Of a stretch of DNA of 64,000 nucleotides, positions 37,424 to 54,057 are shown piece after piece (within the stretch, counting starts at the first letter, position 1; every line of letters begins with the position of its first letter). This DNA is from Alphaproteobacteria bacterium. GTDB lineage: Bacteria > Pseudomonadota > Alphaproteobacteria > UBA7985. The notes below the pieces were generated by a model. That model was given only the letters and a program-made list of their open reading frames with translations, was not told the DNA's origin and did no database searches. The stretch is from the NCBI GenBank assembly GCA_965660945.1, contig CBFIBS010000001.1, positions 63,961 through 127,960 of the forward strand, given 5' to 3'. Made by a program: the position numbers and the translations under genes.

Positions 37424-38998
37424 ATGTCGCAAAATTGGTGGGATAACGCCGTCATCTATCAGATCTACCCGCGCAGCTTCGCCGACAGCAATGGCGATGG
37501 CGTCGGCGACCTCAACGGTATCACTGGCAAGCTGGACTACATCGCTGATCTGGGCGTCGATGCCATCTGGATCAGCCCGTTCTTCGTCTCGCCGATGAAG
37601 GATTTCGGCTACGACGTCGCCGACTACCGCGCTGTGGACCCGATCTTTGGCACCAACGCAGACTTTGACCGCTTGCTCGAGCAAGCGCATGCCCGGGGGC
37701 TGAAGGTGCTGATCGACATGGTGCTCGCGCACTGCTCGGACCAGCACCCCTGGTTCGTGGAAAGCCGCACCAGCCGCGACAACCCCAAGGCGGACTGGTT
37801 CTACTGGCTCGACCCCAAGGAGGATGCCACTGAACCGAACAACTGGATGAGCTTTTTTGGTGGCCGTACCTGGACCTGGAACACGGCCCGGCAGCAGTAC
37901 TATTTTCACAACTTCCTGCCCAGTCAGCCCAACCTCAACCTCTCCAACCCCGAGGTGCTCGACGCCATGATCGACACCTGCCGGTTCTGGCTGGATAAGG
38001 GCGTGGACGGCTTCCGGCTTGATGCCATGCACACCGCCAAGCTGGATAACGACTGGACCGATAACAGCCCGCGTCCGCGCCCAGGCGGAGCACGGCCCGA
38101 ACGCGAGTTCGACTATCAGGCGCAGGACAGCGCGCAACTCAACCAGCCGAGCATCCAGATCCTTTCTACCCGGCTGCGGGCCTTGGTCGACGAGTACGGC
38201 GACCGTTTCCTCATGGGCGAGCTCGACGGCGAGGACGCTGTCGCGGTCTCCAAGACCTTTACCGAGCCGGGCCGACTGCACTCGACCTACAACTTCAACC
38301 TGCTGCGGATGGAGGGAAGCACCGTGGCGGAGGTGCGGCACATCATCGGTGATCTCGCGCGGAACTTCAACGACAGCAACGCCATTTCGGTGGCCTGGTC
38401 CAACCACGACATCGCCCGGGTCTACGACCGCATGAAGCGCCGGATCGACGTGCCAGAAGCCTATGCCGACGACTTCGCGCACATGCTGTTCCAGCTGTCG
38501 ACCAGCCTGATCGGTTCCACCTGCGTCTATCAGGGCGAGGAACTGGGCTTGGACGATGCCGACCGGCTTACGCAGGATCAGCTGCAGGACCCCTGGGGCG
38601 TGGCGCGTTACTCGGACACCTTCAAGGGGCGCGATACCTGCCGCACGCCCATGCCCTGGACCCAAGCCCTGCCCAACACCGGGTTCAGCGGTGACGACCT
38701 CGTCGAAAGCTGGTTGCCGGTAGACGAACGCCACAAATCCAAGGGCGGATTGGACCAGCAGGGCAAGCAGGGCTCCATGTTCGAGCGAAACAAGGGCCAC
38801 CTCAGTTGGCGTCGAAACCAGCCGGCGCTCACACGCAACGGCCAGATCCAGCTCATCGATGGCGGGGATAATGTAATTGCCTTCAATCGGTTGAGCCACG
38901 ACCAGTCCGACACTATGCTGTGCCTGTTCAACTTTTCGTCGCAGGCGCAGTCTGTGGAGGGTGTTGACATCCCCCCCTGGTCATCCGCCTTCCGCTGA
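37424..38998 (+). CDS. aglA: alpha-glucosidase (GH13, oligo-1,6-glucosidase/sucrose-isomerase-like)
   Basis: GH13 conserved regions (DAIWISPFF, GFRLDA, EL.GED, NHD). Confidence 0.85.
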   Translation: MSQNWWDNAVIYQIYPRSFADSNGDGVGDLNGITGKLDYIADLGVDAIWISPFFVSPMKDFGYDVADYRAVDPIFGTNADFDRLLEQAHARGLKVLIDMVLAHCSDQHPWFVESRTSRDNPKADWFYWLDPKEDATEPNNWMSFFGGRTWTWNTARQQYYFHNFLPSQPNLNLSNPEVLDAMIDTCRFWLDKGVDGFRLDAMHTAKLDNDWTDNSPRPRPGGARPEREFDYQAQDSAQLNQPSIQILSTRLRALVDEYGDRFLMGELDGEDAVAVSKTFTEPGRLHSTYNFNLLRMEGSTVAEVRHIIGDLARNFNDSNAISVAWSNHDIARVYDRMKRRIDVPEAYADDFAHMLFQLSTSLIGSTCVYQGEELGLDDADRLTQDQLQDPWGVARYSDTFKGRDTCRTPMPWTQALPNTGFSGDDLVESWLPVDERHKSKGGLDQQGKQGSMFERNKGHLSWRRNQPALTRNGQIQLIDGGDNVIAFNRLSHDQSDTMLCLFNFSSQAQSVEGVDIPPWSSAFR

Positions 38999-39009
38999 GA
39001 CACAGAACC

Positions 39010-40065
39010 ATGCCGACGATCTACGATGTAGCACGCAAAGCCGGGGTTTCGCCGAAGACCGTAAGCCGGGTTCTGAACAAAGAGCCGAATGTACGCCAGA
39101 CGACGTTGGAGGCCGTGCAGCGGGCGATCGAGCACCTGGACTACCGACCTTCCACCGCTGCCCGTCTGATGAAAAGCCAGCGGACGCGCGTGGTGGGCTT
39201 TCTTACCGACCGTGTCGTGACATCACCCGAAGCCAATGCCATCGCGCGCGGGGTCTCCGAAGCTGCTCAGGCCGAGGGCTACACGGTGATCTTCCTCAAC
39301 GAGCTGTCTTCGAATGCGCCACTGGTCGGGCATGCGGTCAACCAGCTGATCGACCTGAATGTCGACGGCATGATCTACGCCTCCCACCTGCTCCGTCAGA
39401 TCGACGTCTCAGGCTATGCCGACCGGAGCAAGCCACTGGTTCTGGCGAACTGCTTCAGCGCCGAGAATACCTATACCTCCGTGATCCCCGACGACTACCG
39501 AGGCGGCCAGCTGGCTGGCGAAATGATCATCGAAAAGGGTCACCGGAGCGTCACCATGCTCAACCTCGACAAACCGAGCATTGCCGCAGGTGACCGCGCT
39601 GCGGGGTTCCGGAGTGCCTTTGCCGCAGCCGGCCTGCCTGCGCCCGAGGTCATTACCTCGATTTTTGAAGACGCAGGCAGCTGGGAAGAACACCGACATG
39701 TGCCCGGCATTCTGGACGAGGTACTTGCGCGGGCCGATCGCCCTTCGGTGCTGTTCTGCGGCAACGACAAACTCGCCATGGTCGTCTACGGCCTGCTGGC
39801 TCAGCGCGGTCAGCGTGTGCCGGACGATATATCCGTCGTCGGCTACGACGATTTCCCCCACATCTGCCAACTGCTGCGTCCACGCCTGAGCTCGGTTTCC
39901 ATCGCCCACGACGTCATCGGGCAGCGTGCCTTCACCGAACTGTTCCGGCAGCTCAACGGCCTCACCGAAACCCCGCTTGTTGCTGCCGCCCCCGGCCCTG
40001 CCCCGATCAAGGTCGCAGGCGCGCCCTTTGCCCGCGCGTCCCTGTCTCAACTGGAATCGACCTGA
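39010..40065 (+). CDS. LacI-family transcriptional regulator
   Basis: N-terminal HTH TIYDVARKAGVSPKTVSRVLN plus a periplasmic-binding-like sugar domain. Likely repressor of the adjacent agl operon. Confidence 0.8.
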   Translation: MPTIYDVARKAGVSPKTVSRVLNKEPNVRQTTLEAVQRAIEHLDYRPSTAARLMKSQRTRVVGFLTDRVVTSPEANAIARGVSEAAQAEGYTVIFLNELSSNAPLVGHAVNQLIDLNVDGMIYASHLLRQIDVSGYADRSKPLVLANCFSAENTYTSVIPDDYRGGQLAGEMIIEKGHRSVTMLNLDKPSIAAGDRAAGFRSAFAAAGLPAPEVITSIFEDAGSWEEHRHVPGILDEVLARADRPSVLFCGNDKLAMVVYGLLAQRGQRVPDDISVVGYDDFPHICQLLRPRLSSVSIAHDVIGQRAFTELFRQLNGLTETPLVAAAPGPAPIKVAGAPFARASLSQLEST

Positions 40066-40097: not shown

Positions 40098-41033
40098 TCA
40101 GGCCCGGCGCAGCCCCCGGACAGCTTTCAGATGGGCGAGGATCAGCGCATCACGCTCTGCGCTGAGTTCTTCCAGCGAACAGCCCTGCGCCTCATCTGCC
40201 AGACCGCTGGCGAGGACAGCGCCGGTTTCTGCATCCAGCCGAGGTTCGCCAAGGTCATCCCACCAGCGATGGAAGCTGGCCGCATAGCGATCACAGAAGG
40301 CCTCCATGCCGCCCTCTCCAGCCCCCAGATTGAAAAGCATGTGCGGCCCCATGGCACCCCAGCGTAGCCCGGGTCCGGCCCAAACCGCTGTATCAACATC
40401 TTCCACCGTCGCCACGCCCTCTTTCACCAGATGCACGGCCTCACGCCACAGCGCGGCTTGCAGGCGGTTGGCAACGTGTCCGGGCACCTCTTTGCTGACG
40501 CGAATGGTGACCTTGCCGACTTCCTCGTAGAAGGCCTCAGCAGCATCGATCGCCTCGGGTGCCGTCTGCTCATTGCCGATGACCTCGACCAGTGGGATCA
40601 GGTGGGGCGGGTTGAAGGGGTGCCCGAGAACGAAGTTTGACGGATCCTTCCAGCCAGCCTGCATCTCGCGCACCATCAGCCCCGAAGCCGACGAAGCGAC
40701 GATGCAGTTGTCTTTCAGACAGGGCTCGATCCGGCCGAAGGCGTCGAGCTTGAGATCAAGCCGCTCGGGCAGATTCTCTTGCACGAAATCGGCATCTTCG
40801 ACGGCGGCTTCCAGTGACCGTGCAACGCAAAAAGCGCCGCGCCTCCCATCCTGCGCCAATCCAAGTTCGAGGAGCGTGGGCCAGGCGCGATCGACGTAGT
40901 TGGTGACCTTTTCCGGCGCCTGTTCGTCAACATCAAAGACGCAGACATCCTTGCCTGCAGCCAGAAACAGCGCCGTCCAGCTCGCGCCGATGACCCCGCC
41001 CCCGAGGACAGCCGTTTTGTTGAATTCGCTCAT
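40098..41033 (-). CDS. 3-hydroxyacyl-CoA dehydrogenase-family NAD-binding protein (L-carnitine dehydrogenase-like)
   Basis: Rossmann GGGVIGASW plus a 3HCDH C-terminal domain. 311 aa from Met34 of the ORF. Start overlaps the upstream SDR stop (ATGA). Confidence 0.75.
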   Translation of the reverse strand: MSEFNKTAVLGGGVIGASWTALFLAAGKDVCVFDVDEQAPEKVTNYVDRAWPTLLELGLAQDGRRGAFCVARSLEAAVEDADFVQENLPERLDLKLDAFGRIEPCLKDNCIVASSASGLMVREMQAGWKDPSNFVLGHPFNPPHLIPLVEVIGNEQTAPEAIDAAEAFYEEVGKVTIRVSKEVPGHVANRLQAALWREAVHLVKEGVATVEDVDTAVWAGPGLRWGAMGPHMLFNLGAGEGGMEAFCDRYAASFHRWWDDLGEPRLDAETGAVLASGLADEAQGCSLEELSAERDALILAHLKAVRGLRRA

Positions 41034-41776
41034 CAGAACAATCCCGGGTTCAGGGGTGAAGACGCGGTCAGGCCGCCGTCGACGGTGAACAGCTGTCCCG
41101 TGGTAAACGACGACTGGTCGGAAGCCAGCCAAGCGGCCATGGCTGCAATATCCGAGGGCTGGCCGAAGCGCCCGGCAGGGTGCCGGGCCAGCGCGTCGGT
41201 TTTGGCGGCCTCGGGGTTATCGGCAACGGCAAAGGCCGCATCGACCATGCCGGTCATGATCCAGCCCGGACAGATGGCGTTGCAACGCACGGCGGGGCCA
41301 TGGTCCACCGCGATCGAGCGGGTCAGACCGTGCACGAAGGCCTTGGAGGCGTTGTAAATCGCAAGACCGGGGTCGGCCGTCTGGCCGCTGATCGAACCGA
41401 TGTTGATGATCGACCCGCCGTGGGACATCCGTGGGATCAGCGCGCGGCACATGAGGAACACGCCCTTTGCATTGGCGCCCATGAGCAGATCCCAGTCGGC
41501 ATCGCTGGTTTCGGTAATCGTCTTTTCGACCTGAATGCCGGCATTGTTGACCAGAATGTCCAGCCCCTCGATCCCGGCCGCGAGTTCCGCCACAGCCCCG
41601 GGGTCCGATACGTCCGAGCACGCCCAGGCAAAGTGCGCCGGCAGATCGTCGGGCCGCGCCCCACGCCCGGTGATGGTCACGCGCGCGCCCTCAGCGGCAA
41701 ATCGATCGGCGATGCCCCGGCCGATGCCCTGTCGTCCGCCGGTGACCAGCGCTGTCTTGTTCTCCAGCATAGCCAT
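41033..41776 (-). CDS. SDR-family oxidoreductase
   Basis: TGGRQGIG, NNAG and the YxxxK catalytic motif. Confidence 0.75.
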   Translation of the reverse strand: MAMLENKTALVTGGRQGIGRGIADRFAAEGARVTITGRGARPDDLPAHFAWACSDVSDPGAVAELAAGIEGLDILVNNAGIQVEKTITETSDADWDLLMGANAKGVFLMCRALIPRMSHGGSIINIGSISGQTADPGLAIYNASKAFVHGLTRSIAVDHGPAVRCNAICPGWIMTGMVDAAFAVADNPEAAKTDALARHPAGRFGQPSDIAAMAAWLASDQSSFTTGQLFTVDGGLTASSPLNPGLF

Positions 41777-41777
41777 A

Positions 41778-43196
41778 TCAGTGCGCCACCATCACGTGAC
41801 GCACGGCGGTATAGGCCTCCAGCGCGTAGATCGACATATCGCAGCCCGTGCCCGAACCCTTCATCGCCGCCCACGGCATTTCCGCCGTGCCAACGCCGTG
41901 GGTGTTGACCCAGGTGAAGCCGTAGCGCAGTTGCGCCGCCATCCGCATGGCGAGGCCCACGTCGCGGGTCCAGACCGAAGAGGCCAGCCCGTAACGCGAG
42001 GCATTGGCGATGCCCAGCGCTTCATCGGCGTCGCTGAACCGGGAAATCGTGACCACCGGGCCGAAGACTTCCTGACAGGCGATCTCGGCATCGTTGTCCA
42101 CGTTTGCGACCACGGTGGGGCTGTAGAAGAAGCCCTTGCCCTCCGGCACAGTCCCGCCGCAGGCGATGTCCGCCCCGGCCCGCGCCCGATCCACAAAGCC
42201 CGCGACCCGGTCGCGCTGTGCAGCGGAAATCAGGGGCCCCATTTCGGTTTCGGGGTCGTGTTGAGTGCCCAGACGAATGCTGCTGACAGCTGCTGCGGTC
42301 TCGGCCACCACGCGCTCGAACACGCCATCCTGCACCATGATCCGACACGGTTGGGCGCAGTCCTGCCCAGCATTGAAGAACGAGCCGCCCCGGATGGTCT
42401 CGACCACAGCATCGATGTCAGCATCGTCGAACACGATCACCGGCGCCTTGCCACCGAGTTCCAGATGTACGTGACGGATTTGCTCGGAGGCGGCTTTCAT
42501 CGCTGCCATTCCGGTCGCGGGCGAGCCGGTGATGGAGATCCCCTCGACCCCGGGGTTGTTGATCAGGGCGCTGCCCACGCCCGGCCCCGCACCGTGGATC
42601 ACGTTCACCACGCCGGCGGGCAGAACCTCGTTCATGATTTCGGCCATCCGCAGGGTGGCCAGCGGGGTCAGCTCGGAGGGCTTGAGCACCACCGGGCACC
42701 CGGCGGCCAGCGGTGCAGACAGCTTCCACGACGCCATCATCAGCGGATAGTTCCAGGGCGCGATCGATGCCACCGGGCCGATGGGGTCCTTGCGGATCAT
42801 CGAGGTATGGCCCTCGACGTACTCGCCCGCGGCCGACCCGGTCTGGGTCCGCGCTGCGCCAGCCATGAACCGGAAAGTATCGATGGTCAGCGGCATCTCA
42901 TCGTCGCGCGCGGCGGCAAAGGGCTTTCCGCACTCGAGGCTTTCCAGCTCGGCGAGTTCATCGTTGTGCGCCTCGATCGCATCGGCAACGGCCAGCAGCA
43001 TGCCGGCGCGGTCGGCCGGGGTCGTGCGGCCGAAGCTGTCAAAGGCCGCGGTGGCCGCGTCAACGGCGGACTGGATCTGGGCCGGACTGGCCTCCCTGAC
43101 CGATGCCACCTGCTCTCCGGTCGCAGGATCGAGAACCGGGGTTGCCGCGCCCCCGCCTTCAACGAGCTTGCCCTGGATCAATAGTTTCGTCTGCAT
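41778..43196 (-). CDS. NAD(P)-dependent aldehyde dehydrogenase (betaine/aminobutyraldehyde DH-like)
   Basis: ALDH glutamate (ELGGKAP) and cysteine (FFNAGQDC) active-site motifs. Confidence 0.85.
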
Positions 43197-43234
43197 GGGC
43201 TGTGACTTCCTTCGCTCACCTGTGTTTGTTCGGG

Positions 43235-44164
43235 TCAGAACCCGACCTGATCGCCGCCCTTGAGCCCGAGCCGCTCTCGCGCCTGCTCAGGCGTAGCCAC
43301 GCTCAGGCCCAGCGCTTCGACGATGCCGCGGATCTTTGTGACCTGCTCGGCGTTGCTCGACGCCAGTTTGCCCGGGCCGATGTAGAGGCTGTCTTCCAGA
43401 CCCACGCGTAGATTGCCGCCCAGCATGGCGGCCTGTGTCCCGAAGGACATCTGGTGGCGCCCCGCAGCCAGCACCGACCACTCGTAGTCTTCGCCAAACA
43501 GCTTGTCGGCGATGGTGTGCATGTGCATGAGGTTGTCGAGGTCGGCCCCTACGCCACCGAGCACGCCGAAGACCATCTGCACGAAGAACGGCGGTTCGAC
43601 CCAGCCCTGATCGATCAGCCACGCCAGATTGTAGAGGTGGCCCAGATCGTAGCATTCGAACTCGAACTTGGTGCCGTGCCCCTGCCCAAGCTCCTTCACC
43701 ACGTATTCGAGGTCGGCGAAGGTGTTGCGGAAGATGAAGTCGCGGGTCATGTCGAGGAACTGCGGTTCCCAGTCGAACTTCCACTCGCTGTATTTGTTCG
43801 CCATCGGAAAGATGCCGAAGTTCATCGAACCCACGTTGAGTGAGGCCATTTCCGGGCTGGCGCGGGTCGCAGCGCGCAGCCGTTCTTCCCGGCTCATGCC
43901 CAGCCCGCCGCCGGTCGAAACGTTCATCACCGCGTCGGTCGACTGCTTGATGCGGGGCAGAAAGTCCATGAACAGATCGGGGCTGGGGTCGGGCTTGCCC
44001 GTCTTCGGGTCGCGGGCGTGGAGGTGGATGATCGACGCCCCGGCCTCAGCTGCACCGATGGCGGCGGTGGCGATTTCATCGGGGGTGATGGGCAGGTGCT
44101 CGCTCATCGTCGGGGTGTGGATGCCACCAGTGGGCGCGCAGGTGATGATGACGGGTTTGGCCAT
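43235..44164 (-). CDS. BKACE-family (3-keto-5-aminohexanoate cleavage enzyme-like, DUF849) protein
   Basis: TIM-barrel BKACE motifs ([19 protein letters not shown]). Start at Met27 of the ORF. Confidence 0.8.
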
Positions 44165-44190
44165 GGTCTCGGTCTCGCTCTTTGCCGGCG

Positions 44191-44982
44191 CTAGAGTTTC
44201 ATCTGCTGCACCTGAGCCGACAGGCCGCCGTCCAGCACCCACAGCTGACCGGCCGCGTAGCGCGCCTCGTCCGAGGCCAGCCAGTTGACCAGATTGGCCA
44301 TGTCTTCAGGCTTGCCGAAGGTCCGCATGGGGTGCACGTCGCGCACGGCCTGCTGCAGGCTGTCGATGGTGCCGCCATCGCCGCCGCTGCCATCGCCCTC
44401 GAAGAAGGACTGCAGCATGGGCGTATCGACGTAGCCCGGGCAGATGGCGTTCACGCGAATGCCTTCCGGGCCGTGATCGCAAGCCATGGCCCGGGTCAGC
44501 GCGTGGACTGCGCCTTTGGTGGCGCAGTAGGCCGCCAGCCCGGGGTCTGCGATGAAGCCGTCGTAGGAGCCGAAGTTGATCACTGAAGCCCCGCCGCTGG
44601 CCTGCGACCGGCGCAGCAGCGGCAAGGCATGTTTGGACACCAGAAAGGTGCCGGTGACGTTAACCGCAAAGATGCGGTTCCACTCTTCGAGGCTGGTTTC
44701 CTCGATGGTCTTTTCGATCTCGATCCCCGCCGCGTTGACGAGGATATCGAGCCTGCCGTCTGCAGTTGCCGCGACGTGATCGAAGGCTGCGCGGACGCTG
44801 TCCTCGCTGGTCACATCCAGCTGAATGAAGTCATCCGTAGGCTGGTCCTCGGCCAGCGAACCCGCAGCCGTCAGATCAGCGGCAAAGACGCGGGCGCCTT
44901 CGCGGGCAAAGCGGGCGCAAATGGCGCGGCCGATGCCCCCGCGCCCACCGGTGACCAGCGCCGTTTTTCCTGCCAGCATCAT
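44191..44982 (-). CDS. SDR-family oxidoreductase
   Basis: TGGRGGIG, NAAG and YxxxK. Start MMLAGK at 44982 overlaps the Rieske gene stop. Confidence 0.75.
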   Translation of the reverse strand: MMLAGKTALVTGGRGGIGRAICARFAREGARVFAADLTAAGSLAEDQPTDDFIQLDVTSEDSVRAAFDHVAATADGRLDILVNAAGIEIEKTIEETSLEEWNRIFAVNVTGTFLVSKHALPLLRRSQASGGASVINFGSYDGFIADPGLAAYCATKGAVHALTRAMACDHGPEGIRVNAICPGYVDTPMLQSFFEGDGSGGDGGTIDSLQQAVRDVHPMRTFGKPEDMANLVNWLASDEARYAAGQLWVLDGGLSAQVQQMKL

Positions 44983-46121
44983 GGGTTCAGCGCCTTCTTG
45001 TAGGCATCCAGCACCAGCCCGTGAAAGTGATGGACCGCGTGCTCGGACTTGCCCGAGCCGTCGGGGTCGTGGACGATCCGTCCCTGCTCGAAGGCCGGGG
45101 TGTTCATGCCGCGCTGGACGCTTTCGACCAGCCCGATGTCCTCGACCTGCAGCACCTCGTCGAGGTAGCGGATGGCCTCGACCTCGGCCTCGTCCGGGCT
45201 CTGATCGACGAGGAAGAAGTCGTAGGTTTCCAGCGTGCGGTCGGGGCCGACGGGGATGATGTTCAGGATGATCATCGACGGCCGCCCCGGATAACGCATG
45301 ATGCATGTGGTCGGGTACAGCCACCAGACGGCGTGGGTGCGCACGGCAGCGTTGGAGACGTCGTAGGCGGTGTTGCTGCCCTGCCCGGCGTCGGCCATGT
45401 GGCTCGAGTAGATGCCGTGGGTGGTGACCTTGTAGGTATCCATATCCACCAGCGTGCAGAAATCCTTGTGTGCGGTTGGGCAGTGGTAGCACTCGAGGAA
45501 GTTGTCGACGACGTTCTTCCAGTTCGACTTGATGTCGTAGGTCAGCCGGTGGCCGAAGGTCAGCTCATCGACCTCCGGCGCCCAGTACATGATCTCGCGG
45601 CGCAGATCACCGGACTGCTCGGTCAGCGGCGCAGCATTCGGGTCGAGGTTGACGTAGACGAAGCCGCAGAACTCTTCGACCTGCACCTGATCGAGGCAGA
45701 TCTCAGACTTGTCGAAGCCCTTGAGCGACTTGGTGTGCGGCGCAACCTGCAACTTACCGTCGAGCCGGTAAGCCCAGGCGTGATAAGGGCACATGATGTG
45801 GCCGACCGTGCCTTCGCCCTGCAGCAGTTCGTGCGCCCGGTGCTTGCAGACGTTGTAGAATGCGCGCAGCGTGCCGTCTTTGTCCCGCACCACCATGATC
45901 GACTGCCCGGCGATGATCGTGGTCACATAGGCCCCCGGCTCGCGCAGCTTTTCAATATGACAGACCCACTGCCATGAGTGAGAGAACACGGCGTTCTGTT
46001 CGAGGCTGAACCACTCATTCTGTGTGTAAGCCTCGGCCTGCAACGACAGTGAGGACGCCGGGTCGGGGTCATAGCCCGCGCGGATGCGCTCAAAATCTGC
46101 GGCGTTGAGGGCGGTTATCAT
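44979..46121 (-). CDS. Rieske [2Fe-2S] non-heme-iron oxygenase alpha subunit (GbcA/CntA/Stc2-like quaternary-amine oxygenase candidate)
   Basis: Rieske CxH...CxxH (CKHRAHEL...CPYHAW) plus a mononuclear Fe site (ECYHCPTAH, D). Start taken at Met7, which has a GGAAAGAG RBS. No reductase gene is adjacent. Confidence 0.8.
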   Translation of the reverse strand: MITALNAADFERIRAGYDPDPASSLSLQAEAYTQNEWFSLEQNAVFSHSWQWVCHIEKLREPGAYVTTIIAGQSIMVVRDKDGTLRAFYNVCKHRAHELLQGEGTVGHIMCPYHAWAYRLDGKLQVAPHTKSLKGFDKSEICLDQVQVEEFCGFVYVNLDPNAAPLTEQSGDLRREIMYWAPEVDELTFGHRLTYDIKSNWKNVVDNFLECYHCPTAHKDFCTLVDMDTYKVTTHGIYSSHMADAGQGSNTAYDVSNAAVRTHAVWWLYPTTCIMRYPGRPSMIILNIIPVGPDRTLETYDFFLVDQSPDEAEVEAIRYLDEVLQVEDIGLVESVQRGMNTPAFEQGRIVHDPDGSGKSEHAVHHFHGLVLDAYKKALNP

Positions 46122-46165
46122 GGCTCTTTCCTGCTGCATCGGTATGGGTTCGGGGCGCCCGGCGG

Positions 46166-47704
46166 TCAGGCCGGATCGGTCTTGGGGAACCGAAAACGCT
46201 CGGCGGCGACAGTCCAGTCCATATGGTTGCGGACGTACTGCTGGCTGGCGTCCTTGGGCGGGTTGTAGTCCCAGGGTTCGGCGGCGCCCGCCTCCATGGC
46301 GGCGTGGATCGCCCGGCGCTGGCGCTGTGTGGCCATGACATCTTCGCGCAGTCTGGCGCTGTCCCAGCGGCCCGCGACCTCGGCTGCGAAGTCTGCTGCC
46401 ATGGCGGCATGCCCGGGATCGTCGACCAGATTGCGGGCCTCGCTGGGATCGTCTGCAAGGTTATAGAGCAAGGGCTTGTCGCCCTCGCAGGCGATATATT
46501 TGTACGGCCCGCGCCGGATCATGAACACGGGGTGGCCGGCCATTTCTGCGCAGTACTCACCGATGGCCTCGTCAACCCCGTCAGCCTCTCCTCGCGCCAG
46601 CGGCATCAGCGAGCGGCCGTCGATGGGCATGCCGAGCGCCGGCTGTGCGGTTCCCGCGCTGGCGGCAATATCGAGAATGGTCGGCAGGATATCGACGAGG
46701 CTGCAGGCATTGGCCGCCGCGCCCTGCCTGACCCCCGGCCCGGCGATGATCAGCGGCACCCGCGCGGAGTGTTCGAAGAAGTTCATCTTGTACCAGAGCC
46801 CGCGCTCGCCCAGCATATCACCATGGTCGGCGGTGATGATGAAGATCGTATCCTCGAGCATCCCCGCCTCGGCGATGGTCTGCACCAGCTCACCGACTTT
46901 GCTGTCGAAGTATGAGACGTTAGCGAAATAGGCGTGGCGTGCCTTGCGCACCTCCGCCTCGGTCAGCGGGACCGTCGAGGCCTCGATCCCGTCCATGACC
47001 CGGCGGGAGAAGCCGTCGTGCTCCTCGGGCGCCAGCACGAAGGCCGGCATGTCGATATCATCGCTGTCGTAGAGATCCCACCACTCCTGCCGCGCCACGT
47101 AGGGGTCGTGCGGGTGAATAAAGCTGGCAACCATGCAGAACGGCTGATCGTCGTCGCGGGCGTAGTCGAAAATCCGGCGCTTGGCGTAGAAGGCGACTTC
47201 TTCATCGTAGTCGATCTGGAAGGTCGCCGCCCCGATCCCAGCTTCCTTGACCGTGGCCATGTTGTGGTACCACTTGTCGATCCGCTCGTCGGGCAGTTCC
47301 CAGTCCGGGGTCCAGGCATAGTCCGACGGATAGATGTCGGTCGTCACCCGCTCTTCAAAGCCGTGCATCTGATCCGGGCCGACGAAGTGCATCTTCCCGG
47401 ACAGGCAGGTGCGGTAACCCATGAGCCGCAGGTAGTGGGCAAAGGTTGGGATCGACGCTGGAAATTCTGAGGCATTGTCATAGGCCGCAATGCGGGAGAT
47501 CAGCTGGCCCGACATGAAGCTGAACCGCGACGGCGCGCACAGCGGCGAGTTGCAGTAGGCGGCGTCATACCGCATGCCCCGCGCAGCCAGCGCATCGATG
47601 TGCGGGGTTTTGACCAGTGGATGGCCATAGGCGCCCGTAAACTGGGGGGCCAGCTGATCCGCCATGATCAGGACGATGTTGGGCGCGCGCTTGCTTGGCT
47701 GCAT
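46166..47704 (-). CDS. betC: choline-sulfatase
   Basis: Type I sulfatase with the formylglycine motif SPLCAPSR and a 512-aa length matching BetC. Start at Met42 of the ORF. Confidence 0.8.
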   Translation of the reverse strand: MQPSKRAPNIVLIMADQLAPQFTGAYGHPLVKTPHIDALAARGMRYDAAYCNSPLCAPSRFSFMSGQLISRIAAYDNASEFPASIPTFAHYLRLMGYRTCLSGKMHFVGPDQMHGFEERVTTDIYPSDYAWTPDWELPDERIDKWYHNMATVKEAGIGAATFQIDYDEEVAFYAKRRIFDYARDDDQPFCMVASFIHPHDPYVARQEWWDLYDSDDIDMPAFVLAPEEHDGFSRRVMDGIEASTVPLTEAEVRKARHAYFANVSYFDSKVGELVQTIAEAGMLEDTIFIITADHGDMLGERGLWYKMNFFEHSARVPLIIAGPGVRQGAAANACSLVDILPTILDIAASAGTAQPALGMPIDGRSLMPLARGEADGVDEAIGEYCAEMAGHPVFMIRRGPYKYIACEGDKPLLYNLADDPSEARNLVDDPGHAAMAADFAAEVAGRWDSARLREDVMATQRQRRAIHAAMEAGAAEPWDYNPPKDASQQYVRNHMDWTVAAERFRFPKTDPA

Positions 47705-47816
47705 GGCCTGAAACCTCCGGGAAACGTGACAGCGGGAGCTTGCAGGAAACCACGGGCACCACCTTGCATTTTTACGACATCCGCAGAGATTTTTCCGAGC
47801 CCTTTGATCTGTCCCG

Positions 47817-48839
47817 TCAGTCTTCACCTTCGGACAGGAAGCGAAGCTCGAACGCGACCTTTCCCCTCTGCCGGTGGCGGGTGGGGGTCAGGCCGAAGCG
47901 GCGCTTAAACACACGCGAGAAGTTTGCCGCCGAACCGAAGCCGCAGGCCAGAGCCACCTCCAGCATCGGCAAGGTAGTCTGTGTCAGCAGTTCTTGGGCG
48001 CGCCCAAGCCGGAGATCGAGGAAGTGACCCAGCGGCGTCCCCATACCAGCAGCCCTGAAGGCCCGCTCCAGCGCCCGCTGGTGCACGCCAAGGGTATCGG
48101 CGATTGCGGGGACTGAAACCGGCTCCTCGATATGAGCGCGCATGATTTGCTCAGCCTGCTCGATCAACCCCGCCGCCGACGCCGCACCGCCGATGCGCGG
48201 TTTGATACTGCCAGCGGGGTCATCGTCCGATGAGGCCTTAGGGCGACCCCCGGGGATTAACAGATAGTCACTGACCCTGTCGCGGGCGCGGTCCCCAAGG
48301 TCGCTTGCAATGACTGAAAGCGCACAATCGAAGGCGCCGCTGCCACCTGCACAGGACAGCACCAGCGGATCGTCGACCCAGCGCTCATCCAGAACGTCAA
48401 TTGCCGGGTAAAGTTCGCCAAGGGATTGCCGGTGCTCAGGGTGAACCGTAACCCGCCCCCGCGTCAGCAAGCCTGCTGAGCCGAGGACAAAGGCACCGGT
48501 ATCGATGGTCACCAGACGGGTTCCGGCCCGGTACCAGCGCCTCAGCGTCGCCAGCAATCTCGGCTGGGCCAGCGCCTCGGGCGTCCAACTGGTGGAGACC
48601 ACGAGAAAGTCCGGCGCCTGCCCGGCCGGATCAAATGGGCTGGTCTTAAGCTCGGCCGTGTTGGATGCCTGCAGCATTCCGCCGCCAACGCTCTGGAAGG
48701 CCCAGGCATAGCGACGCCCATAGAGGTAGTTGGCCACGCGAAAGGGATCGACGAAGGCCGTGGTCGCCGCAAGATTGAAGCTCGGAGCGGTCAGGATACA
48801 GAGTTGAACCAGATCGCTGCGGGGTTTGCTGGGTAGCAT
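47817..48839 (-). CDS. GlxA-family (GATase1-like/DJ-1 plus AraC-HTH) transcriptional regulator (CdhR/GbdR-like)
   Basis: DJ-1/PfpI-like N-domain and C-terminal AraC HTH (GFGSAANFSRVFKRRFGLTP). Heads the minus-strand operon. Confidence 0.8.
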   Translation of the reverse strand: MLPSKPRSDLVQLCILTAPSFNLAATTAFVDPFRVANYLYGRRYAWAFQSVGGGMLQASNTAELKTSPFDPAGQAPDFLVVSTSWTPEALAQPRLLATLRRWYRAGTRLVTIDTGAFVLGSAGLLTRGRVTVHPEHRQSLGELYPAIDVLDERWVDDPLVLSCAGGSGAFDCALSVIASDLGDRARDRVSDYLLIPGGRPKASSDDDPAGSIKPRIGGAASAAGLIEQAEQIMRAHIEEPVSVPAIADTLGVHQRALERAFRAAGMGTPLGHFLDLRLGRAQELLTQTTLPMLEVALACGFGSAANFSRVFKRRFGLTPTRHRQRGKVAFELRFLSEGED

Positions 48840-49083: not shown

Positions 49084-50391
49084 ATGCCCGCATACCCAGC
49101 TTTGAGCGCGACATCCGCCTACGACGTCCTGATCGCCGGTGGTGGCATTTGCGGACTGGTCACCGCGCTGACCCTGCACCAGCTGGGCATCCCCTGCCGC
49201 GTGTTTGAGGCCGTCAGCGCCCCGCGCCCTCTGGGGGTTGGCATCAACCTGCAGCCCAACGCCGTCCGAGAGCTCTATGATCTGGGGATCGACGATGCGC
49301 TGCTCGATACCATCGGCATTCAGGCGAGGGAATGGGCGCTCGTGGGCCTCAACGGCAACGATATCTACGCCGAGCCCCGCGGCCTGCTCGCTGGCTATCA
49401 CTGGCCGCAGTATGCGGTTCACCGGGGTGAGCTGCACATGCTGCTCTACCGCGCTGTGCTCGAACGCCTCGGCCCGGATCGAGTCAGCCTTGGGCACCGC
49501 GCCCAAGGCTATCGCATCGAGGAAGACGGCAGCGGTGTCAGCCTGCTGGTCCAGACGCCCGGCAGCGATAAACTGTTGGCCATTGGCGGCAAACTACTGC
49601 TCGGGGCTGACGGTCTTCATTCCGCCATCCGCGCGCAGATGCACCCCGACCAGCCCCCCATCCACTGGGGTGGGACCATCATGTGGCGGGGTGTGACCCG
49701 TGCGCCCGCCATCCGCACCGGTTCTTCGTTTGTCGGCCTGGGCGAGGAAGACCGCCGGCTTGTCATCTACCCCATTTCCCAGCCCGACGCCGACGGCCTG
49801 TCGCTGATCAACTGGATTGCCGAGATCCGGGTCGACAGCCAGCAGGGCTGGGAAGGCACCGGCTGGTACAACGAAGTCGAGGTCGACAGCTTTCTGCACC
49901 ACTTCGAGGGCATGAAATACGATTGGCTCGATGTTCCGGCATTGCTGGCCCAGTGCTCGGTCGCCTTTGAAAACCCGATGATCGACCGCGACCCCGTCGA
50001 CACGTGGACCGATGGCCCGGTGCTGCTGCTGGGTGATGCGGCGCACCCCATGTATCCGACCGGCTCGAACGGCGCCAGCCAGGCCATCATCGACGCCCGC
50101 CGGCTGGGCGCCCTGTTCCTCGAACAGGGTGTCAACGCTGGCGCGCTGGCGGCCTTTGATCTTGCGCTCAACGGCCCGGTCAACGAGGTGGTGCTGCGCA
50201 ACCGCGGTGATGGTCCCTTCGGCCTGCTCAAGCTGGTCGAGGAGCGATGCGGCGGGCGCTTCGAGGATATCAACGCAGTGATCCCGGCCGATGAACGCCA
50301 GCAATTCATGCAGCGCTATCAGGCCGCAGCAGGCTTCGCCCGTGAAGCCCTTAATGCTGCGCCGCCAACAATCACGCCGAAATCCGACTGA
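49084..50391 (+). CDS. FAD-dependent aromatic-ring monooxygenase (salicylate / 3-hydroxybenzoate hydroxylase-like)
   Basis: GxGxxG (VLIAGGGICG), DG motif (GADGLHS), GDAAH. Confidence 0.8.
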   Translation: MPAYPALSATSAYDVLIAGGGICGLVTALTLHQLGIPCRVFEAVSAPRPLGVGINLQPNAVRELYDLGIDDALLDTIGIQAREWALVGLNGNDIYAEPRGLLAGYHWPQYAVHRGELHMLLYRAVLERLGPDRVSLGHRAQGYRIEEDGSGVSLLVQTPGSDKLLAIGGKLLLGADGLHSAIRAQMHPDQPPIHWGGTIMWRGVTRAPAIRTGSSFVGLGEEDRRLVIYPISQPDADGLSLINWIAEIRVDSQQGWEGTGWYNEVEVDSFLHHFEGMKYDWLDVPALLAQCSVAFENPMIDRDPVDTWTDGPVLLLGDAAHPMYPTGSNGASQAIIDARRLGALFLEQGVNAGALAAFDLALNGPVNEVVLRNRGDGPFGLLKLVEERCGGRFEDINAVIPADERQQFMQRYQAAAGFAREALNAAPPTITPKSD

Positions 50392-54047: not shown

Positions 54048-54057
54048 AGCCTGCCTC

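What the first reader, a model, noticed from the sequence alone, without database searches (positions are those of the whole stretch)
40098..48839. Eight-gene operon combining choline sulfatase, a lone Rieske oxygenase, BKACE and a carnitine-dehydrogenase-like enzyme under a CdhR/GbdR-type regulator
This gene set mixes parts of three known quaternary-amine routes with non-canonical substitutions. The minus-strand run, all with overlapping or near-overlapping junctions, is: GlxA/AraC regulator, betC-like sulfatase, Rieske alpha subunit, SDR, BKACE, ALDH, SDR, HADH. In pseudomonads the GATase1-AraC regulators CdhR and GbdR control carnitine and glycine-betaine catabolism. BKACE plus an HADH-family L-carnitine dehydrogenase is the cdhCA pair. 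A Rieske oxygenase is GbcA/CntA-like. betC with an ALDH is choline-sulfate to betaine. Missing here are a Rieske reductase partner (GbcB/CntB), a betainyl-CoA thioesterase (CdhB) and a GMC choline dehydrogenase (BetA). Two SDRs occupy the positions where BetA or CdhB functions would be needed. It could encode a previously uncharacterised route for a sulfated or quaternary osmolyte (choline-O-sulfate, carnitine, or a related marine compound), possibly with an SDR-type choline dehydrogenase.
Basis: partly seen in the sequence, partly recalled or inferred. Interest (0 to 1): 0.6.

Follow-up and report, generated by a model that had tools for sequence, protein, structure and literature searches.

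The report
Uncharacterised quaternary-amine breakdown gene cluster
This is a real, widely conserved eight-gene cluster for breaking down a choline- or carnitine-like compound, built from diverged copies of the known enzymes around a CntA-like Rieske oxygenase. I found no paper that assigns its substrate.

Summary
The eight minus-strand genes are present as described: regulator, sulfatase, Rieske alpha subunit, SDR, BKACE, ALDH, SDR and HADH.

The set is not a chance mix. The same seven enzymes recur in 13 other loci (Rhodobacterales, Hyphomicrobiales). The six without the sulfatase recur in Pseudomonas, Mesorhizobium, SAR116 and Pacificispira. Sub-sets built around the Rieske gene reach Burkholderia and Actinobacteria.

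The partners "missing" here sit inside the Pseudomonas, Burkholderia and Mesorhizobium versions: a reductase, plus a CdhB-like thioesterase and a betaine-type transporter component in most of them. So the SDRs are not substitutes for them.

Every protein is a diverged relative of a canonical quaternary-amine enzyme, not its orthologue:
- Rieske: 34% identical to CntA.
- Sulfatase: 45-51% to BetC, with altered gate residues.
- HADH: about 40% to L-carnitine dehydrogenase, below the model cut-off.
- BKACE: 33% to CdhC.

A CdhR/GbdR-style direct-repeat operator lies upstream of the sulfatase gene.

Best reading, inferred: a route converging on glycine betaine. The Rieske enzyme hydroxylates a gamma-butyrobetaine-type betaine to a carnitine-type 3-hydroxy acid, taking the place of the 2-oxoglutarate-dependent hydroxylase BBOX. 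Dehydrogenation and BKACE cleavage follow. The sulfatase is a marine add-on.

The substrate is unproven, and I found no paper describing the cluster.

The parts
47817..48839 (-). GATase1-like/AraC (GlxA, GbdR/CdhR-type) transcriptional regulator, 340 aa
   Evidence: Pfam DJ-1_PfpI + HTH_18. The GbdR model gives 141 bits over nearly full length, below its 480 cut-off. It is 38-41% identical to the regulators of the Pseudomonas MPC6 module and of the Caballeronia cdh locus. A homologue lies next to the cluster in 36 of 84 loci, in variable orientation.
47770..47800 (-). Putative operator: two direct half-sites (GCTCGGAAAAAT / TGTCGTAAAAAT) with 21-bp period, 95 nt upstream of the sulfatase start codon
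   Evidence: Direct repeats with an exact 21-bp period occur on the coding strand 70-122 nt upstream of the first enzyme gene in 13 of 84 loci. Shuffles give 0.25, and the reverse strand gives 1. CdhR, GbdR, SouR and ArgR sites have the same architecture, 6-bp direct half-sites with a 15-bp spacer (PMC5806209). The window site scores at the lowest threshold used (15 of 20). Binding was not tested.
46166..47704 (-). Choline-sulfatase-family sulfatase, cluster-specific clade, 512 aa
   Evidence: TIGR03417 gives 703 bits against a 433 cut-off, and Choline_sulf_C is present. S. meliloti BetC (6FNY) matches at 500 bits. C-A-P-S-R, N75, W129, H145, H201 and K309 are kept, while W142K, N498D, L499W and D500T are changed and conserved in nearly all cluster-linked copies. 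Identity is at least 70% within clusters and 45-51% to bona fide betC.
44979..46121 (-). Rieske non-haem-iron oxygenase alpha subunit, group Va (CntA-like), 380 aa; no reductase gene in the window
   Evidence: Pfam Rieske + Ring_hydroxyl_A. The best PDB match is CntA at 250 bits over full length and 34% identity. The AF2 model has pLDDT 95, and Foldseek gives TM 0.88/0.91 to CntA. Phe sits at CntA Y203, and E210, C211/C214, H213, H218 and D328 are present. The family stays at 60% identity or more across phyla.
44191..44982 (-). SDR1, classical short-chain dehydrogenase (Asp after beta-2, NAD-type by sequence), 263 aa; the most constant neighbour of the Rieske gene
   Evidence: Pfam adh_short. 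Its start overlaps the Rieske stop by 4 nt. It lies immediately downstream of the Rieske gene, or of the sulfatase gene where that follows the Rieske gene, in 58 of 84 loci. No specific family assignment emerged.
43235..44164 (-). [quoted passage not shown]
   Evidence: Pfam BKACE at 349 bits. NF053538 gives 508 bits against a 430 cut-off. PDB matches are 3e02 at 432 bits and 8RIO at 378 bits. Identity is at least 69% within Rieske clusters (74% or more outside Burkholderia), about 60% to P. denitrificans BKACE15 and 33% to the canonical CdhC.
41778..43196 (-). Aldehyde dehydrogenase of the aminobutyraldehyde-DH (omega-aminoaldehyde) subfamily, 472 aa
   Evidence: PRK13473 gives 672 bits against a 615 cut-off. 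The BADH and SSADH models score below their cut-offs. It is 66% identical to the Pseudomonas MPC6 module ALDH and only 34% to the SSADH-type ALDH of the A. baumannii cnt operon.
41033..41776 (-). SDR2, classical short-chain dehydrogenase (Arg after beta-2, possibly NADP-type), 247 aa; always paired with the HADH gene
   Evidence: Pfam adh_short. It starts 1 nt after the ALDH gene and overlaps the HADH start by 1 nt. It is present in 43 of 84 loci. No specific family assignment emerged.
40098..41033 (-). 3-hydroxy-acid dehydrogenase of the HADH / carnitine-dehydrogenase / lambda-crystallin group, 311 aa
   Evidence: Pfam 3HCDH_N + 3HCDH. The L-carnitine DH model gives 266 bits against a 414 cut-off, while a canonical CDH control scores 615. 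It is 35-42% identical to annotated carnitine dehydrogenases and 53-65% to HADHs of other Rieske clusters. The best PDB match is lambda-crystallin, which by background knowledge is L-gulonate 3-dehydrogenase, a free-acid 3-hydroxy dehydrogenase.

Best explanation
**General claim, well supported (about 0.85).** The locus is one copy of a conserved, sometimes plasmid-borne catabolic module for a trimethylammonium compound related to carnitine, gamma-butyrobetaine (GBB) and choline. It is built like the carnitine (cdh) and CntAB systems but from diverged relatives of their proteins.

**Specific mechanism, inferred (about 0.4).**
1. Where present, the BetC-like sulfatase removes a sulfate ester from a choline-sulfate-like precursor.
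2. An SDR and the omega-aminoaldehyde-type ALDH oxidise a trimethylammonio-alcohol and its aldehyde to the betaine (GBB-type, or choline to glycine betaine).
3. The Rieske oxygenase, supplied by a reductase encoded elsewhere in this genome, hydroxylates the carbon beta to the nitrogen of the GBB-type betaine. The product is a carnitine-type 3-hydroxy acid. The Rieske enzyme thus takes the place of the 2-oxoglutarate-dependent GBB hydroxylase (BBOX).
4. The HADH and/or SDR1 oxidise the 3-hydroxy acid to the 3-keto acid.
5. [quoted passage not shown]
6. A CdhB-like thioesterase, not present in this window, releases glycine betaine.
7. The adjacent GATase1-AraC regulator activates the operon from a direct-repeat operator.

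**Shown:** gene content, family placement, conserved synteny and the operator-like repeat. **Inferred:** every substrate and the order of steps.
For: **Quaternary-amine context**
- The Rieske protein has the group-Va signature: an aromatic residue at CntA Y203, a bridging Glu, the CxxC pair and the 2-His-1-Asp triad (PMC7948474).
- Its model superposes on CntA with TM 0.88/0.91.
- OpuAC/betaine-type ABC transporter genes lie beside the cluster in 8-16 loci.
- The Pseudomonas and Burkholderia binding proteins pass the choline-SBP model TIGR03414.
- The B. lata upstream SBP is 69% identical to the CaiX-position SBP of a canonical cdh locus and shares its binding-site signature.
- BetI-type TetR regulators sit next to the Rieske gene in 15 actinobacterial loci.

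**The partners exist in other lineages**
- CntB-like reductases (35% identical to CntB) lie in the Pseudomonas and Burkholderia modules.
- A ferredoxin-reductase-type protein lies in the Mesorhizobium module.
- A thioesterase 41% identical to the canonical cdh-locus thioesterase (CdhB position) lies in the Pseudomonas module, and it matches the thioesterase domain of the long CDH model.

**A dehydrogenase follows the hydroxylase**
- SDR1 or HADH lies within 9 kb of the Rieske gene in 66 of 84 loci.
- Minimal units are Rieske+SDR1, Rieske+HADH and Rieske+BKACE+HADH.

**Pocket residues point to a C4 carboxylated betaine**
- The two CntA tyrosines that make polar contacts with carnitine and GBB (Y225, Y295) are kept and invariant in the family.
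- Tyr at the Y295 position is rare (5 of 74) in other homologues.

**The aldehyde and the acyl-CoA seem to keep the ammonium group**
- The ALDH is the omega-aminoaldehyde type. The true CntA operon has an SSADH-type ALDH.
- The thioesterase resembles the betainyl-CoA thioesterase.

**Precedent for the logic**
- An Arctic SAR11 island carries ADH, ALDH, BBOX, CDH, BKACE, thioesterase and a betaine ABC transporter (PMC12421898).
- NetSyn's carnitine "route 1" context is HADH, betaine ABC transporter, AraC regulator and GBB dioxygenase, and it includes some BKACEs from outside the carnitine group.

**Regulation**
- A direct-repeat operator with 21-bp period is enriched on the coding strand upstream of the operon.
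Against: - No enzyme was assayed.
- The BKACE belongs to the NF053538 subfamily. Its characterised relative, P. denitrificans BKACE15 (about 60% identical), is reported active on neutral C5-C6 beta-keto acids, with no mention of dehydrocarnitine (PMC11961710). It is only 33% identical to canonical CdhC.
- All characterised bacterial group-Va enzymes (CntA, OxyBAC) attack the carbon alpha to the nitrogen and release an amine. Only plant choline monooxygenase is known to attack the beta carbon.
- Two SDRs plus an HADH are more dehydrogenases than the scheme needs.
- No natural source of a trimethylammonio-alcohol other than choline was found in the literature searched. A 2025 study calls trimethylaminobutyraldehyde of unknown metabolic origin in P. 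aeruginosa.
- The sulfatase's altered gate residues suggest a substrate other than choline-O-sulfate, which the scheme does not identify.
- About 15 loci, mostly actinobacterial, carry the Rieske gene with none of the other enzymes nearby.
Confidence: 0.4

Rival explanations
1. Choline-monooxygenase reading. The Rieske enzyme is a bacterial counterpart of plant choline monooxygenase. The sulfatase turns choline-O-sulfate into choline, the Rieske enzyme makes betaine aldehyde hydrate, and the ALDH (or SDR1) makes glycine betaine. HADH, BKACE and thioesterase form a separate carnitine-like branch that also ends at glycine betaine, so the operon funnels two substrates.
For: The sulfatase gene always lies directly beside the Rieske gene in the alphaproteobacterial loci. 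Some family members are labelled choline monooxygenase by JGI. Choline-type SBPs and BetI-type repressors accompany the Rieske gene. B. lata has both a CaiX-like and a ChoX-like SBP flanking the cluster, so each enzyme there could be assigned to one of two branches. A canonical betC also sits next to a canonical cdh locus in Caballeronia.
Against: The Rieske pocket keeps the two tyrosines that make polar contacts with the carboxylated substrates in CntA, and choline has no carboxylate. By background knowledge Pseudomonas and Burkholderia already carry BetAB, so a mobile choline module would be redundant. Rieske+HADH and Rieske+BKACE+HADH units in Actinobacteria are hard to explain with choline. 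The sulfatase is not a canonical BetC. I could not obtain a plant CMO sequence for direct comparison.
Confidence: 0.2
2. CntA-like C-N cleavage. The Rieske enzyme hydroxylates the carbon next to the nitrogen of a carnitine-like betaine and releases trimethylamine plus an aldehyde. The ALDH, SDRs, HADH and BKACE then process the nitrogen-free, hydroxylated carbon skeleton to acetoacetate and a small acyl-CoA.
For: CntA is the closest characterised protein and structure. The reductases in the Pseudomonas and Burkholderia modules are CntB homologues. The BKACE belongs to a subfamily whose tested member accepts neutral beta-keto acids, which fits an intermediate that has already lost the ammonium group.
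Against: Identity to CntA is only 34%, and four of seven pocket residues differ. The ALDH is of the omega-aminoaldehyde type, not the SSADH type found in the real cnt operon. A CdhB-like thioesterase is not expected for an ordinary acyl-CoA. For carnitine or GBB the aldehyde product needs only an ALDH, which leaves HADH, BKACE and two SDRs without a role.
Confidence: 0.15
3. The module degrades a quaternary (or sulfonium) compound not yet considered. Candidates are a longer homologue such as delta-valerobetaine or homocarnitine, homocholine or beta-alanine betaine, or a sulfated hydroxy-betaine. All the enzymes would then act in an order different from the schemes above.
For: Every component is a distinct relative of the choline/carnitine enzymes with invariant, family-specific pocket residues. 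The Pseudomonas MPC6 SBP keeps the ChoX aromatic box but changes both tail-contacting residues (N156D, D157G). The sulfatase gains a Lys and loses the gate Asp. No paper describing the cluster was found.
Against: No positive evidence points to any particular alternative substrate. 'Carnitine sulfate' and its variants occur in none of the roughly 8 million papers searched.
Confidence: 0.2
4. The genes are unrelated neighbours, or they belong to an aromatic-compound or lysine-fermentation pathway, as the generic annotations 'ring-hydroxylating oxygenase' and '3-keto-5-aminohexanoate cleavage protein' would suggest.
For: PGAP product names in annotated records. The CORE-cycle paper guessed 'aromatic degradation' for a related BKACE from its genetic context.
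Against: Synteny is conserved across four bacterial classes. The Rieske protein has the group-Va signature rather than an aromatic-substrate type, and it has no beta subunit. The cluster is linked to betaine-type transporters and regulators. The Kce model scores 228 bits against a 382 cut-off.
Confidence: 0.03

Closest known systems
Carnitine-to-glycine-betaine operon caiX-cdhCAB with cdhR (Pseudomonas aeruginosa; canonical copy seen here in Caballeronia sp. M1242, L085)
   Same: Both have the same parts list: an OpuAC-type SBP, a BKACE, an HADH-family 3-hydroxy-acid dehydrogenase, a 4HBT thioesterase and a GATase1-AraC regulator with a direct-repeat operator of 21-bp period. The end product is probably the same, glycine betaine plus acetoacetate.
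   Different: The proteins are diverged relatives: BKACE 33%, HADH about 40%, thioesterase 41%, SBP 48%, regulator 37%. The HADH fails the L-carnitine dehydrogenase model. The module adds a Rieske oxygenase (with or without a reductase), two SDRs, an ALDH and, in marine alphaproteobacteria, a sulfatase. In this window the SBP and thioesterase are absent.
Carnitine monooxygenase CntAB / YeaWX (Acinetobacter baumannii, E. coli)
   Same: Both are two-component group-Va Rieske systems acting on trimethylammonium compounds. They share the fold (TM 0.88-0.91), an aromatic residue for the pi-cation contact, the bridging Glu and the CxxC pair. Y225 and Y295 are conserved. CntB-like reductases are present in the Pseudomonas and Burkholderia modules.
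   Different: Identity is 34%. F258T, N270M, Y315L and F319L change the pocket. The operon partners differ: the cnt operon has a BCCT transporter, an SSADH-type ALDH, a tartrate/D-malate dehydrogenase and a LysR regulator, and no BKACE, HADH or SDR. The reaction (C-N cleavage or C-hydroxylation) is unknown here.
Choline-O-sulfatase BetC (Sinorhizobium meliloti betICBA; PDB 6FNY, 6G60)
   Same: It belongs to the same family (TIGR03417 passed), with the formylglycine motif, the sulfate-binding residues, the Trp129/His145 quaternary-ammonium clamp and the C-terminal extension.
   Different: It forms a separate clade (45-51% identity) with conserved W142K, N498D, L499W and D500T changes at the gate and the quaternary-ammonium contact. 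It is embedded in a Rieske/SDR operon rather than next to betA and betB.
BBOX-containing gamma-butyrobetaine/carnitine islands (NetSyn BKACE cluster 0; Arctic SAR11 genomic island)
   Same: The island combines an alcohol dehydrogenase, an ALDH, a GBB hydroxylase, a carnitine dehydrogenase, a BKACE, a thioesterase and a betaine ABC transporter under AraC-type control. This is the step order proposed here.
   Different: The hydroxylase there is a 2-oxoglutarate-dependent dioxygenase, whereas here a Rieske oxygenase would take that role. The BKACE and HADH subfamilies also differ.

Membership tests
Group Va quaternary-ammonium Rieske oxygenases (CntA / CMO / OxyBAC) | Rieske CxH...CxxH cluster ligands and the 2-His-1-carboxylate iron site | tested here: met
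   C92/H94/C111/H114 and H213/H218/D328 are invariant or nearly invariant in alignments A1 and A2.
Group Va quaternary-ammonium Rieske oxygenases (CntA / CMO / OxyBAC) | Aromatic residue at CntA Y203 (pi-cation contact) rather than the Asn of clade Vb; bridging Glu; CxxC pair | tested here: met
   The motif DNF208-L-E210-C211-Y-H213-C214 aligns to CntA DNY203-M-E205-C206-Y-H208-C209. Phe is present in all 21 family members. The criterion comes from PMC7948474.
Group Va quaternary-ammonium Rieske oxygenases (CntA / CMO / OxyBAC) | CntA-like alpha-only fold | tested here: met
   The AF2 model has pLDDT 95. Foldseek gives TM 0.88/0.91 and rmsd 1.9 A to 6Y9C, with Stc2 next at about 0.78-0.81. No beta-subunit gene is present.
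Group Va quaternary-ammonium Rieske oxygenases (CntA / CMO / OxyBAC) | Oxidises a quaternary ammonium substrate | not testable with these tools
   Needs an enzyme assay.
Carnitine monooxygenase CntA/YeaW (orthologue) | Orthologue-level similarity and a conserved carnitine pocket | tested here: not met
   Identity to CntA and YeaW is 34-38%, against 60% or more within the family itself. Pocket residues F258, N270, Y315 and F319 are replaced by T, M, L and L.
Carnitine monooxygenase CntA/YeaW (orthologue) | Operon with CntB reductase and an SSADH-type malic-semialdehyde dehydrogenase | tested here: not met
   The window has no reductase. The ALDH is PRK13473-type and 34% identical to the A. baumannii cnt-operon ALDH.
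Choline-O-sulfatase BetC | Passes the equivalog model and has the Choline_sulf_C extension and the CxPxR formylglycine motif | tested here: met
   TIGR03417 gives 703 bits against 433. PF12411 is present, as is C-A-P-S-R.
Choline-O-sulfatase BetC | Choline-binding determinants of SmeCOSe: W129/H145 clamp, the Asn146-Asp500 gate, and Leu499 contacting the methyl groups | tested here: inconclusive
   W129, W143, Y144, H145 and N146 are kept. W142 is replaced by K, N498 by D, L499 by W and D500 by T, and these changes recur in nearly all cluster-linked copies. Canonical BetC proteins have L-D at 499-500.
Choline-O-sulfatase BetC | Hydrolyses choline-O-sulfate | not testable with these tools
   Needs an assay. 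The clade is 45-51% identical to characterised or annotated BetC.
L-carnitine dehydrogenase (CdhA / LcdH) | Scores above the curated cut-off of the equivalog model | tested here: not met
   NF005471 gives 266 bits against a 414 cut-off, and NF005716 gives 238 against 592. The control, a canonical Caballeronia CDH, scores 615. Identity to annotated CDHs is 35-42%.
Dehydrocarnitine cleavage enzyme CdhC (BKACE carnitine group) | BKACE fold with Zn-site residues | tested here: met
   PF05853 gives 349 bits over full length. The HLH motif is visible in the translation. Related structures are 3e02 and 8RIO.
Dehydrocarnitine cleavage enzyme CdhC (BKACE carnitine group) | Close similarity to a CdhC encoded beside a bona fide carnitine dehydrogenase | tested here: not met
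   Identity to the Caballeronia CdhC is 33%. The protein instead passes NF053538 (508 against 430), which the canonical CdhC does not (198).
GATase1-AraC regulators (GbdR / CdhR / SouR / ArgR type) | N-terminal DJ-1/PfpI-like domain plus C-terminal AraC HTH | tested here: met
   Pfam. The protein aligns to the GbdR model over residues 9-325.
GATase1-AraC regulators (GbdR / CdhR / SouR / ArgR type) | Direct-repeat operator: two half-sites containing CG, with a 15-bp spacer | tested here: met
   The site lies at 47770-47800. The same architecture occurs in 13 of 84 loci against 0.25 expected. Binding itself was not tested.
GATase1-AraC regulators (GbdR / CdhR / SouR / ArgR type) | Orthologue of GbdR | tested here: not met
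   NF052371 gives 141 bits against a 480 cut-off.

The most novel reading that the evidence does not exclude
The module would encode an unrecognised aerobic route in which a Rieske oxygenase, not the 2-oxoglutarate-dependent BBOX, makes a carnitine-type 3-hydroxy acid from a gamma-butyrobetaine-type betaine. That would be a new reaction type for bacterial group-V Rieske enzymes, which otherwise release an amine or a methyl group. In marine alphaproteobacteria, a new clade of BetC-like sulfatase with a Lys and a Trp in the gate would feed it from a sulfated quaternary compound other than choline-O-sulfate, possibly one carrying a carboxylate.
Probability: 0.25. Interest if true: 0.75.

Novelty: new variant of a known kind. 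Interest (0 to 1): 0.6.

Why it matters
Trimethylammonium osmolytes (glycine betaine, choline, choline-O-sulfate, carnitine) are major labile carbon and nitrogen currencies between phytoplankton and bacteria. They are also precursors of trimethylamine.

This module occurs in roseobacters, SAR116, Hyphomicrobiales, sponge-symbiont Acidimicrobiia, and soil Pseudomonas, Burkholderia and actinomycetes. One protein cluster of the family alone holds 328 member sequences from metagenome assemblies. Even so, automatic annotation files its key enzyme under "aromatic ring-hydroxylating oxygenase" or "choline monooxygenase".

Assigning the substrate would have three consequences:
- It would correct the gene catalogues used to budget marine betaine and trimethylamine cycling.
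- It could add a new reaction to the small group-V Rieske family.
- It could reveal the true substrate of a second choline-sulfatase clade.

The self-contained Pseudomonas sp. MPC6 plasmid copy carries its own reductase, thioesterase and binding protein, which makes the question directly testable.

Tried and rejected
**Literature.** Ten full-text searches found no paper describing this cluster. The searches covered BKACE, sulfatase and Rieske together, dehydrocarnitine and gamma-butyrobetaine with Rieske, group-V Rieske enzymes, homocholine, beta-alanine betaine and valerobetaine, trimethylaminobutanol, and carnitine sulfate. The NetSyn BKACE supplement lists carnitine contexts, but none has a Rieske gene.

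**Comparison with plant CMO.** I could not obtain a plant choline monooxygenase sequence.
- The representative search and cluster look-up returned only generic names.
- A search seeded with a eukaryotic homologue found no plant protein.
- The afdb50 fold library was unavailable.

**Structure.** The first AF2 run, with a shallow alignment, gave pLDDT 46 and was discarded. The second run was good, but it only confirmed the CntA-like fold.

**SDRs.** PDB and NCBIfam searches gave only generic classical-SDR matches.

**Actinobacterial neighbours.** Neighbours of a lone Rieske gene (alpha/beta hydrolase, TetR, sigma factor, proline-racemase family, IclR) gave no consistent clue.

**Neighbouring FAD genes.** The FAD-dependent monooxygenase at 49084-50391 and the 164-aa ORF beside the regulator were considered as possible partners and rejected. 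They recur only in the closest relative, L003, and the FAD protein is of the aromatic-hydroxylase type, not a Rieske reductase.

**P. denitrificans BKACE15.** It was considered as an orthologue and rejected. It is about 60% identical and sits in a different context.

Full report
**1. What is in the sequence**

Pfam and NCBIfam place them as follows:
- A DJ-1/PfpI + AraC regulator. The GbdR model gives 141 bits, below its 480 cut-off.
- A sulfatase that passes the choline-sulfatase equivalog model (703 bits against 433) and has the choline-sulfatase C-terminal domain.
- A Rieske alpha subunit.
- A classical SDR.
- A BKACE that passes NF053538 (508 against 430).
- An ALDH that passes the aminobutyraldehyde-dehydrogenase subfamily model (672 against 615) but not the BADH or SSADH models.
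- A second SDR.
- An HADH-family protein whose best model is L-carnitine dehydrogenase, but below cut-off (266 against 414).

Homologue lengths fix the starts of the sulfatase (47704), the Rieske gene (46121) and the HADH gene (41033). The seven enzyme genes are packed, with spacings from a 4-nt overlap to a 44-nt gap. The regulator is 112 nt upstream.

The window holds no PDR/VanB-type reductase, CdhB-type thioesterase or choline/carnitine-type binding protein by tblastn. A ferredoxin-reductase query finds only a weak match to an unrelated oxidoreductase. No GMC oxidoreductase appears among the larger ORFs scanned with Pfam.

**2. The set is conserved**

The Rieske protein belongs to a tight family: 75% identity or more among the 120 best database hits, and 60% or more into Pseudomonas, Burkholderia, Acidimicrobiia and actinomycetes.

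I scored 84 loci with such a Rieske gene by tblastn with the window proteins.
- Neighbours within 9 kb: SDR1 in 58 loci, HADH in 45, SDR2 in 43, BKACE in 35, sulfatase in 34, ALDH in 23.
- All seven enzymes occur together in 13 loci (Rhodobacterales, Rhizobiaceae, other Hyphomicrobiales, Tepidamorphaceae).
- The six without the sulfatase occur in P. chlororaphis, Pseudomonas sp. MPC6 (plasmid), Mesorhizobium amorphae (plasmid), a Puniceispirillaceae MAG and Pacificispira.
- Minimal units are Rieske+SDR1 (Acidimicrobiia), Rieske+SDR1+SDR2 (sponge-associated Poriferihabitaceae), Rieske+HADH, and Rieske+BKACE+HADH (Streptomyces, other Actinobacteria).
- SDR1 or HADH lies near the Rieske gene in 66 of 84 loci.

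The Rieske gene is therefore the core. A secondary-alcohol-type dehydrogenase is its usual partner. The sulfatase is an accessory, almost confined to marine alphaproteobacteria, where it always sits directly beside the Rieske gene.

**3. The "missing" partners are present elsewhere**

- In Pseudomonas sp. MPC6 the module lies next to an IS6 transposase on a conjugative plasmid. It reads GlxA regulator, Rieske, SDR, BKACE, aminobutyraldehyde DH, SDR, HADH, PDR/VanB reductase, thioesterase, choline-type SBP. P. chlororaphis has the same layout.
- B. lata has a CaiX-like SBP, then Rieske, BKACE, ALDH, reductase, HADH and thioesterase, followed by LysR and AraC regulators and a ChoX-like SBP.
- Mesorhizobium has a divergent betaine/proline/choline ABC transporter and, after the HADH gene, a ferredoxin-reductase-type protein and an SMR efflux gene.
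- The PDR-type reductases are 35% identical to CntB.
- The thioesterase is 41% identical to the canonical cdh-locus thioesterase. It matches the thioesterase domain of the long carnitine dehydrogenase model at 112 bits, at least as well as the canonical one at 98 bits.

The two SDRs therefore coexist with these partners and do not replace them. In this window and in most alphaproteobacterial loci the partners are simply not linked: a reductase is adjacent in only 5 of 84 loci.

**4. Quaternary-amine context**

- Marine alphaproteobacterial loci often carry an OpuAC SBP, a fused permease and an ATPase beside the cluster.
- Fifteen actinobacterial loci carry a BetI-type TetR next to the Rieske gene.
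- The Rieske protein has the group-Va signature defined for CntA, CMO and OxyBAC: Phe at CntA Y203, the bridging Glu, the CxxC pair and the iron triad.
- A good AF2 model (pLDDT 95) superposes on CntA at TM 0.88/0.91, ahead of Stc2.
- Upstream of the first enzyme gene, 13 of 84 loci have two direct half-sites (about GKCGAAAAAT) exactly 21 bp apart on the coding strand. Shuffles give 0.25. The window site is at 47770-47800. This is the architecture of CdhR, GbdR, SouR and ArgR sites.

**5. Every component is a diverged relative, not an orthologue, of the known enzymes**

- Rieske: 34-38% identical to CntA and YeaW. Of seven CntA pocket residues, Y225 and Y295 are kept, Y203 becomes Phe, and F258, N270, Y315 and F319 become T, M, L and L. 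All seven are invariant in the family. Tyr at the Y295 position, a polar contact for the carboxylated substrates in CntA, is rare in other homologues (5 of 74).
- Sulfatase: at least 70% identical among clusters, but 45-51% to S. meliloti, Rhizobium, Ruegeria TM1040 and Burkholderia betC. It keeps the formylglycine motif, the sulfate ligands and the W129/H145 clamp. It has K for W142 and D-W-T for N498-L499-D500, which are the gate and quaternary-ammonium-contact residues of the solved enzyme.
- HADH: 35-42% identical to annotated carnitine dehydrogenases. A canonical control passes the model at 615 bits.
- BKACE: 33% identical to the CdhC of a canonical cdh locus, and at least 69% within Rieske clusters (74% or more outside Burkholderia). 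It is about 60% identical to P. denitrificans BKACE15, whose confirmed substrates are neutral C5-C6 beta-keto acids.
- ALDH: 34% identical to the SSADH-type ALDH of the A. baumannii cnt operon.

**6. Mechanism**

The firm conclusion is that this is a catabolic module for a trimethylammonium compound, built on the carnitine/CntAB plan.

For the chemistry I favour a linear route ending at glycine betaine. A quaternary alcohol and its aldehyde are oxidised by an SDR and the omega-aminoaldehyde ALDH to a GBB-type betaine. The Rieske enzyme hydroxylates the carbon beta to the nitrogen to give a carnitine-type 3-hydroxy acid. HADH and/or SDR1 make the 3-keto acid. The BKACE yields acetoacetate plus a betainyl-CoA, and the thioesterase releases the betaine.

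The reasons are:
- The constant pairing of the hydroxylase with a dehydrogenase.
- The Rieske+BKACE+HADH unit in Streptomyces.
- The B. lata cluster, which contains exactly these steps next to a CaiX orthologue.
- The retained substrate-contacting tyrosines.
- An ALDH and a thioesterase of the types that handle ammonium-bearing substrates.
- BBOX-based islands with the same logic.

The weak points are:
- The BKACE subfamily.
- The absence of precedent for beta-carbon hydroxylation among bacterial group-V enzymes.
- A surplus of dehydrogenases.
- No known natural quaternary alcohol other than choline.
- The unexplained changes in the sulfatase gate.

The rivals are a choline-monooxygenase reading with two funnels, a CntA-like trimethylamine-releasing reading, and an unconsidered substrate. 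All remain open.

**7. Novelty**

Ten literature searches and the curated model libraries (NCBIfam June 2026, Pfam) give no specific assignment. The cluster is best described as a new variant of a known kind of system: uncharacterised, widespread and mis-annotated.

Noticed in passing
window 50977-60991 (minus strand), with a LacI-type regulator at 57358-58695 (+): This looks like an organosulfonate cluster. It holds a Zn-ADH, an SDR, a histidinol-dehydrogenase-family protein, TRAP DctM/Q/P genes, an FMN-dependent 2-hydroxy-acid dehydrogenase, and sulfopyruvate decarboxylase beta and alpha subunits that pass TIGR03846 and TIGR03845. From memory it resembles the hpsOPN / hpsKLM / slcD / comDE set for 2,3-dihydroxypropane-1-sulfonate breakdown. 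The sulfatase operon therefore sits next to another sulfur-metabolite locus.
   Followed up: partly
window 49084-50391 (+) and 50410-50904 (+): A FAD-dependent monooxygenase (PRK07538 family, 561 bits against 400) is divergent from the regulator, followed by a 164-aa ORF with no Pfam or NCBIfam match. A homologue of the FAD protein (63% identity) lies near the cluster only in the closest relative, L003, where a betaine-type ABC transporter sits between them. That transporter is missing from this window.
   Followed up: partly
L083 (Pseudomonas sp. MPC6 plasmid pMPC6-328K) 7724-18561; L084 (Mesorhizobium amorphae plasmid): The module is plasmid-borne in several genera: Pseudomonas, Mesorhizobium, Roseovarius, Ruegeria, Shinella, Rhizobium and Alisedimentitalea. 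In MPC6 it directly follows an IS6 transposase, which suggests horizontal spread as a unit. In Mesorhizobium a qacG-like SMR efflux gene follows it.
   Followed up: partly
L001 (Roseovarius rhodophyticola) 3640-8837: The BKACE- and ALDH-less variant of the cluster is preceded by a TRAP transporter (DctPQM) and a 670-aa CocE/NonD-type (Peptidase_S15 + PepX_C) hydrolase. This hints at an anionic and possibly esterified form of the substrate in some roseobacters.
   Followed up: no
L071 11134-12378: In one Paracoccaceae MAG a 414-aa gene with only an N-terminal DUF6915 match is inserted between the Rieske and SDR1 genes.
   Followed up: no
L003 15068-15995: The HADH gene of the closest relative, a long-read MAG, is split into two reading frames near position 15535. 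This is probably an assembly indel rather than a pseudogene.
   Followed up: partly
L060 about 545-1423: In a sponge-associated Poriferihabitaceae genome a canonical CdhC-like BKACE (57% identical to the Caballeronia CdhC) lies about 8.5 kb from the Rieske+SDR1+SDR2 unit.
   Followed up: no
window 26000-34000: This stretch has lower G+C (0.57 against about 0.64). It holds a cytochrome P450 gene (29479-30657), a 624-aa ORF with no Pfam match (30921-32795) and a CopD-like ORF, and may be an acquired island.
   Followed up: no
window 33313-40065 (+): A sugar ABC transporter (SBP_bac_1 plus two permeases), a GH13 alpha-amylase-family enzyme (best model beta-galactosidase BglA, 565 bits against a 900 cut-off) and a LacI regulator converge on the 3' end of the operon. 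They appear unrelated to it.
   Followed up: partly
window 7283-25256: Nitrogen-scavenging genes: urease alpha subunit (10615-12321), a glutamine-synthetase-like gene (14071-15375), an NMT1-type binding protein, an amidohydrolase, an M20 peptidase, and a Fer4_20 + Pyr_redox_2 protein of the dihydropyrimidine-dehydrogenase type, which suggests reductive pyrimidine breakdown.
   Followed up: no
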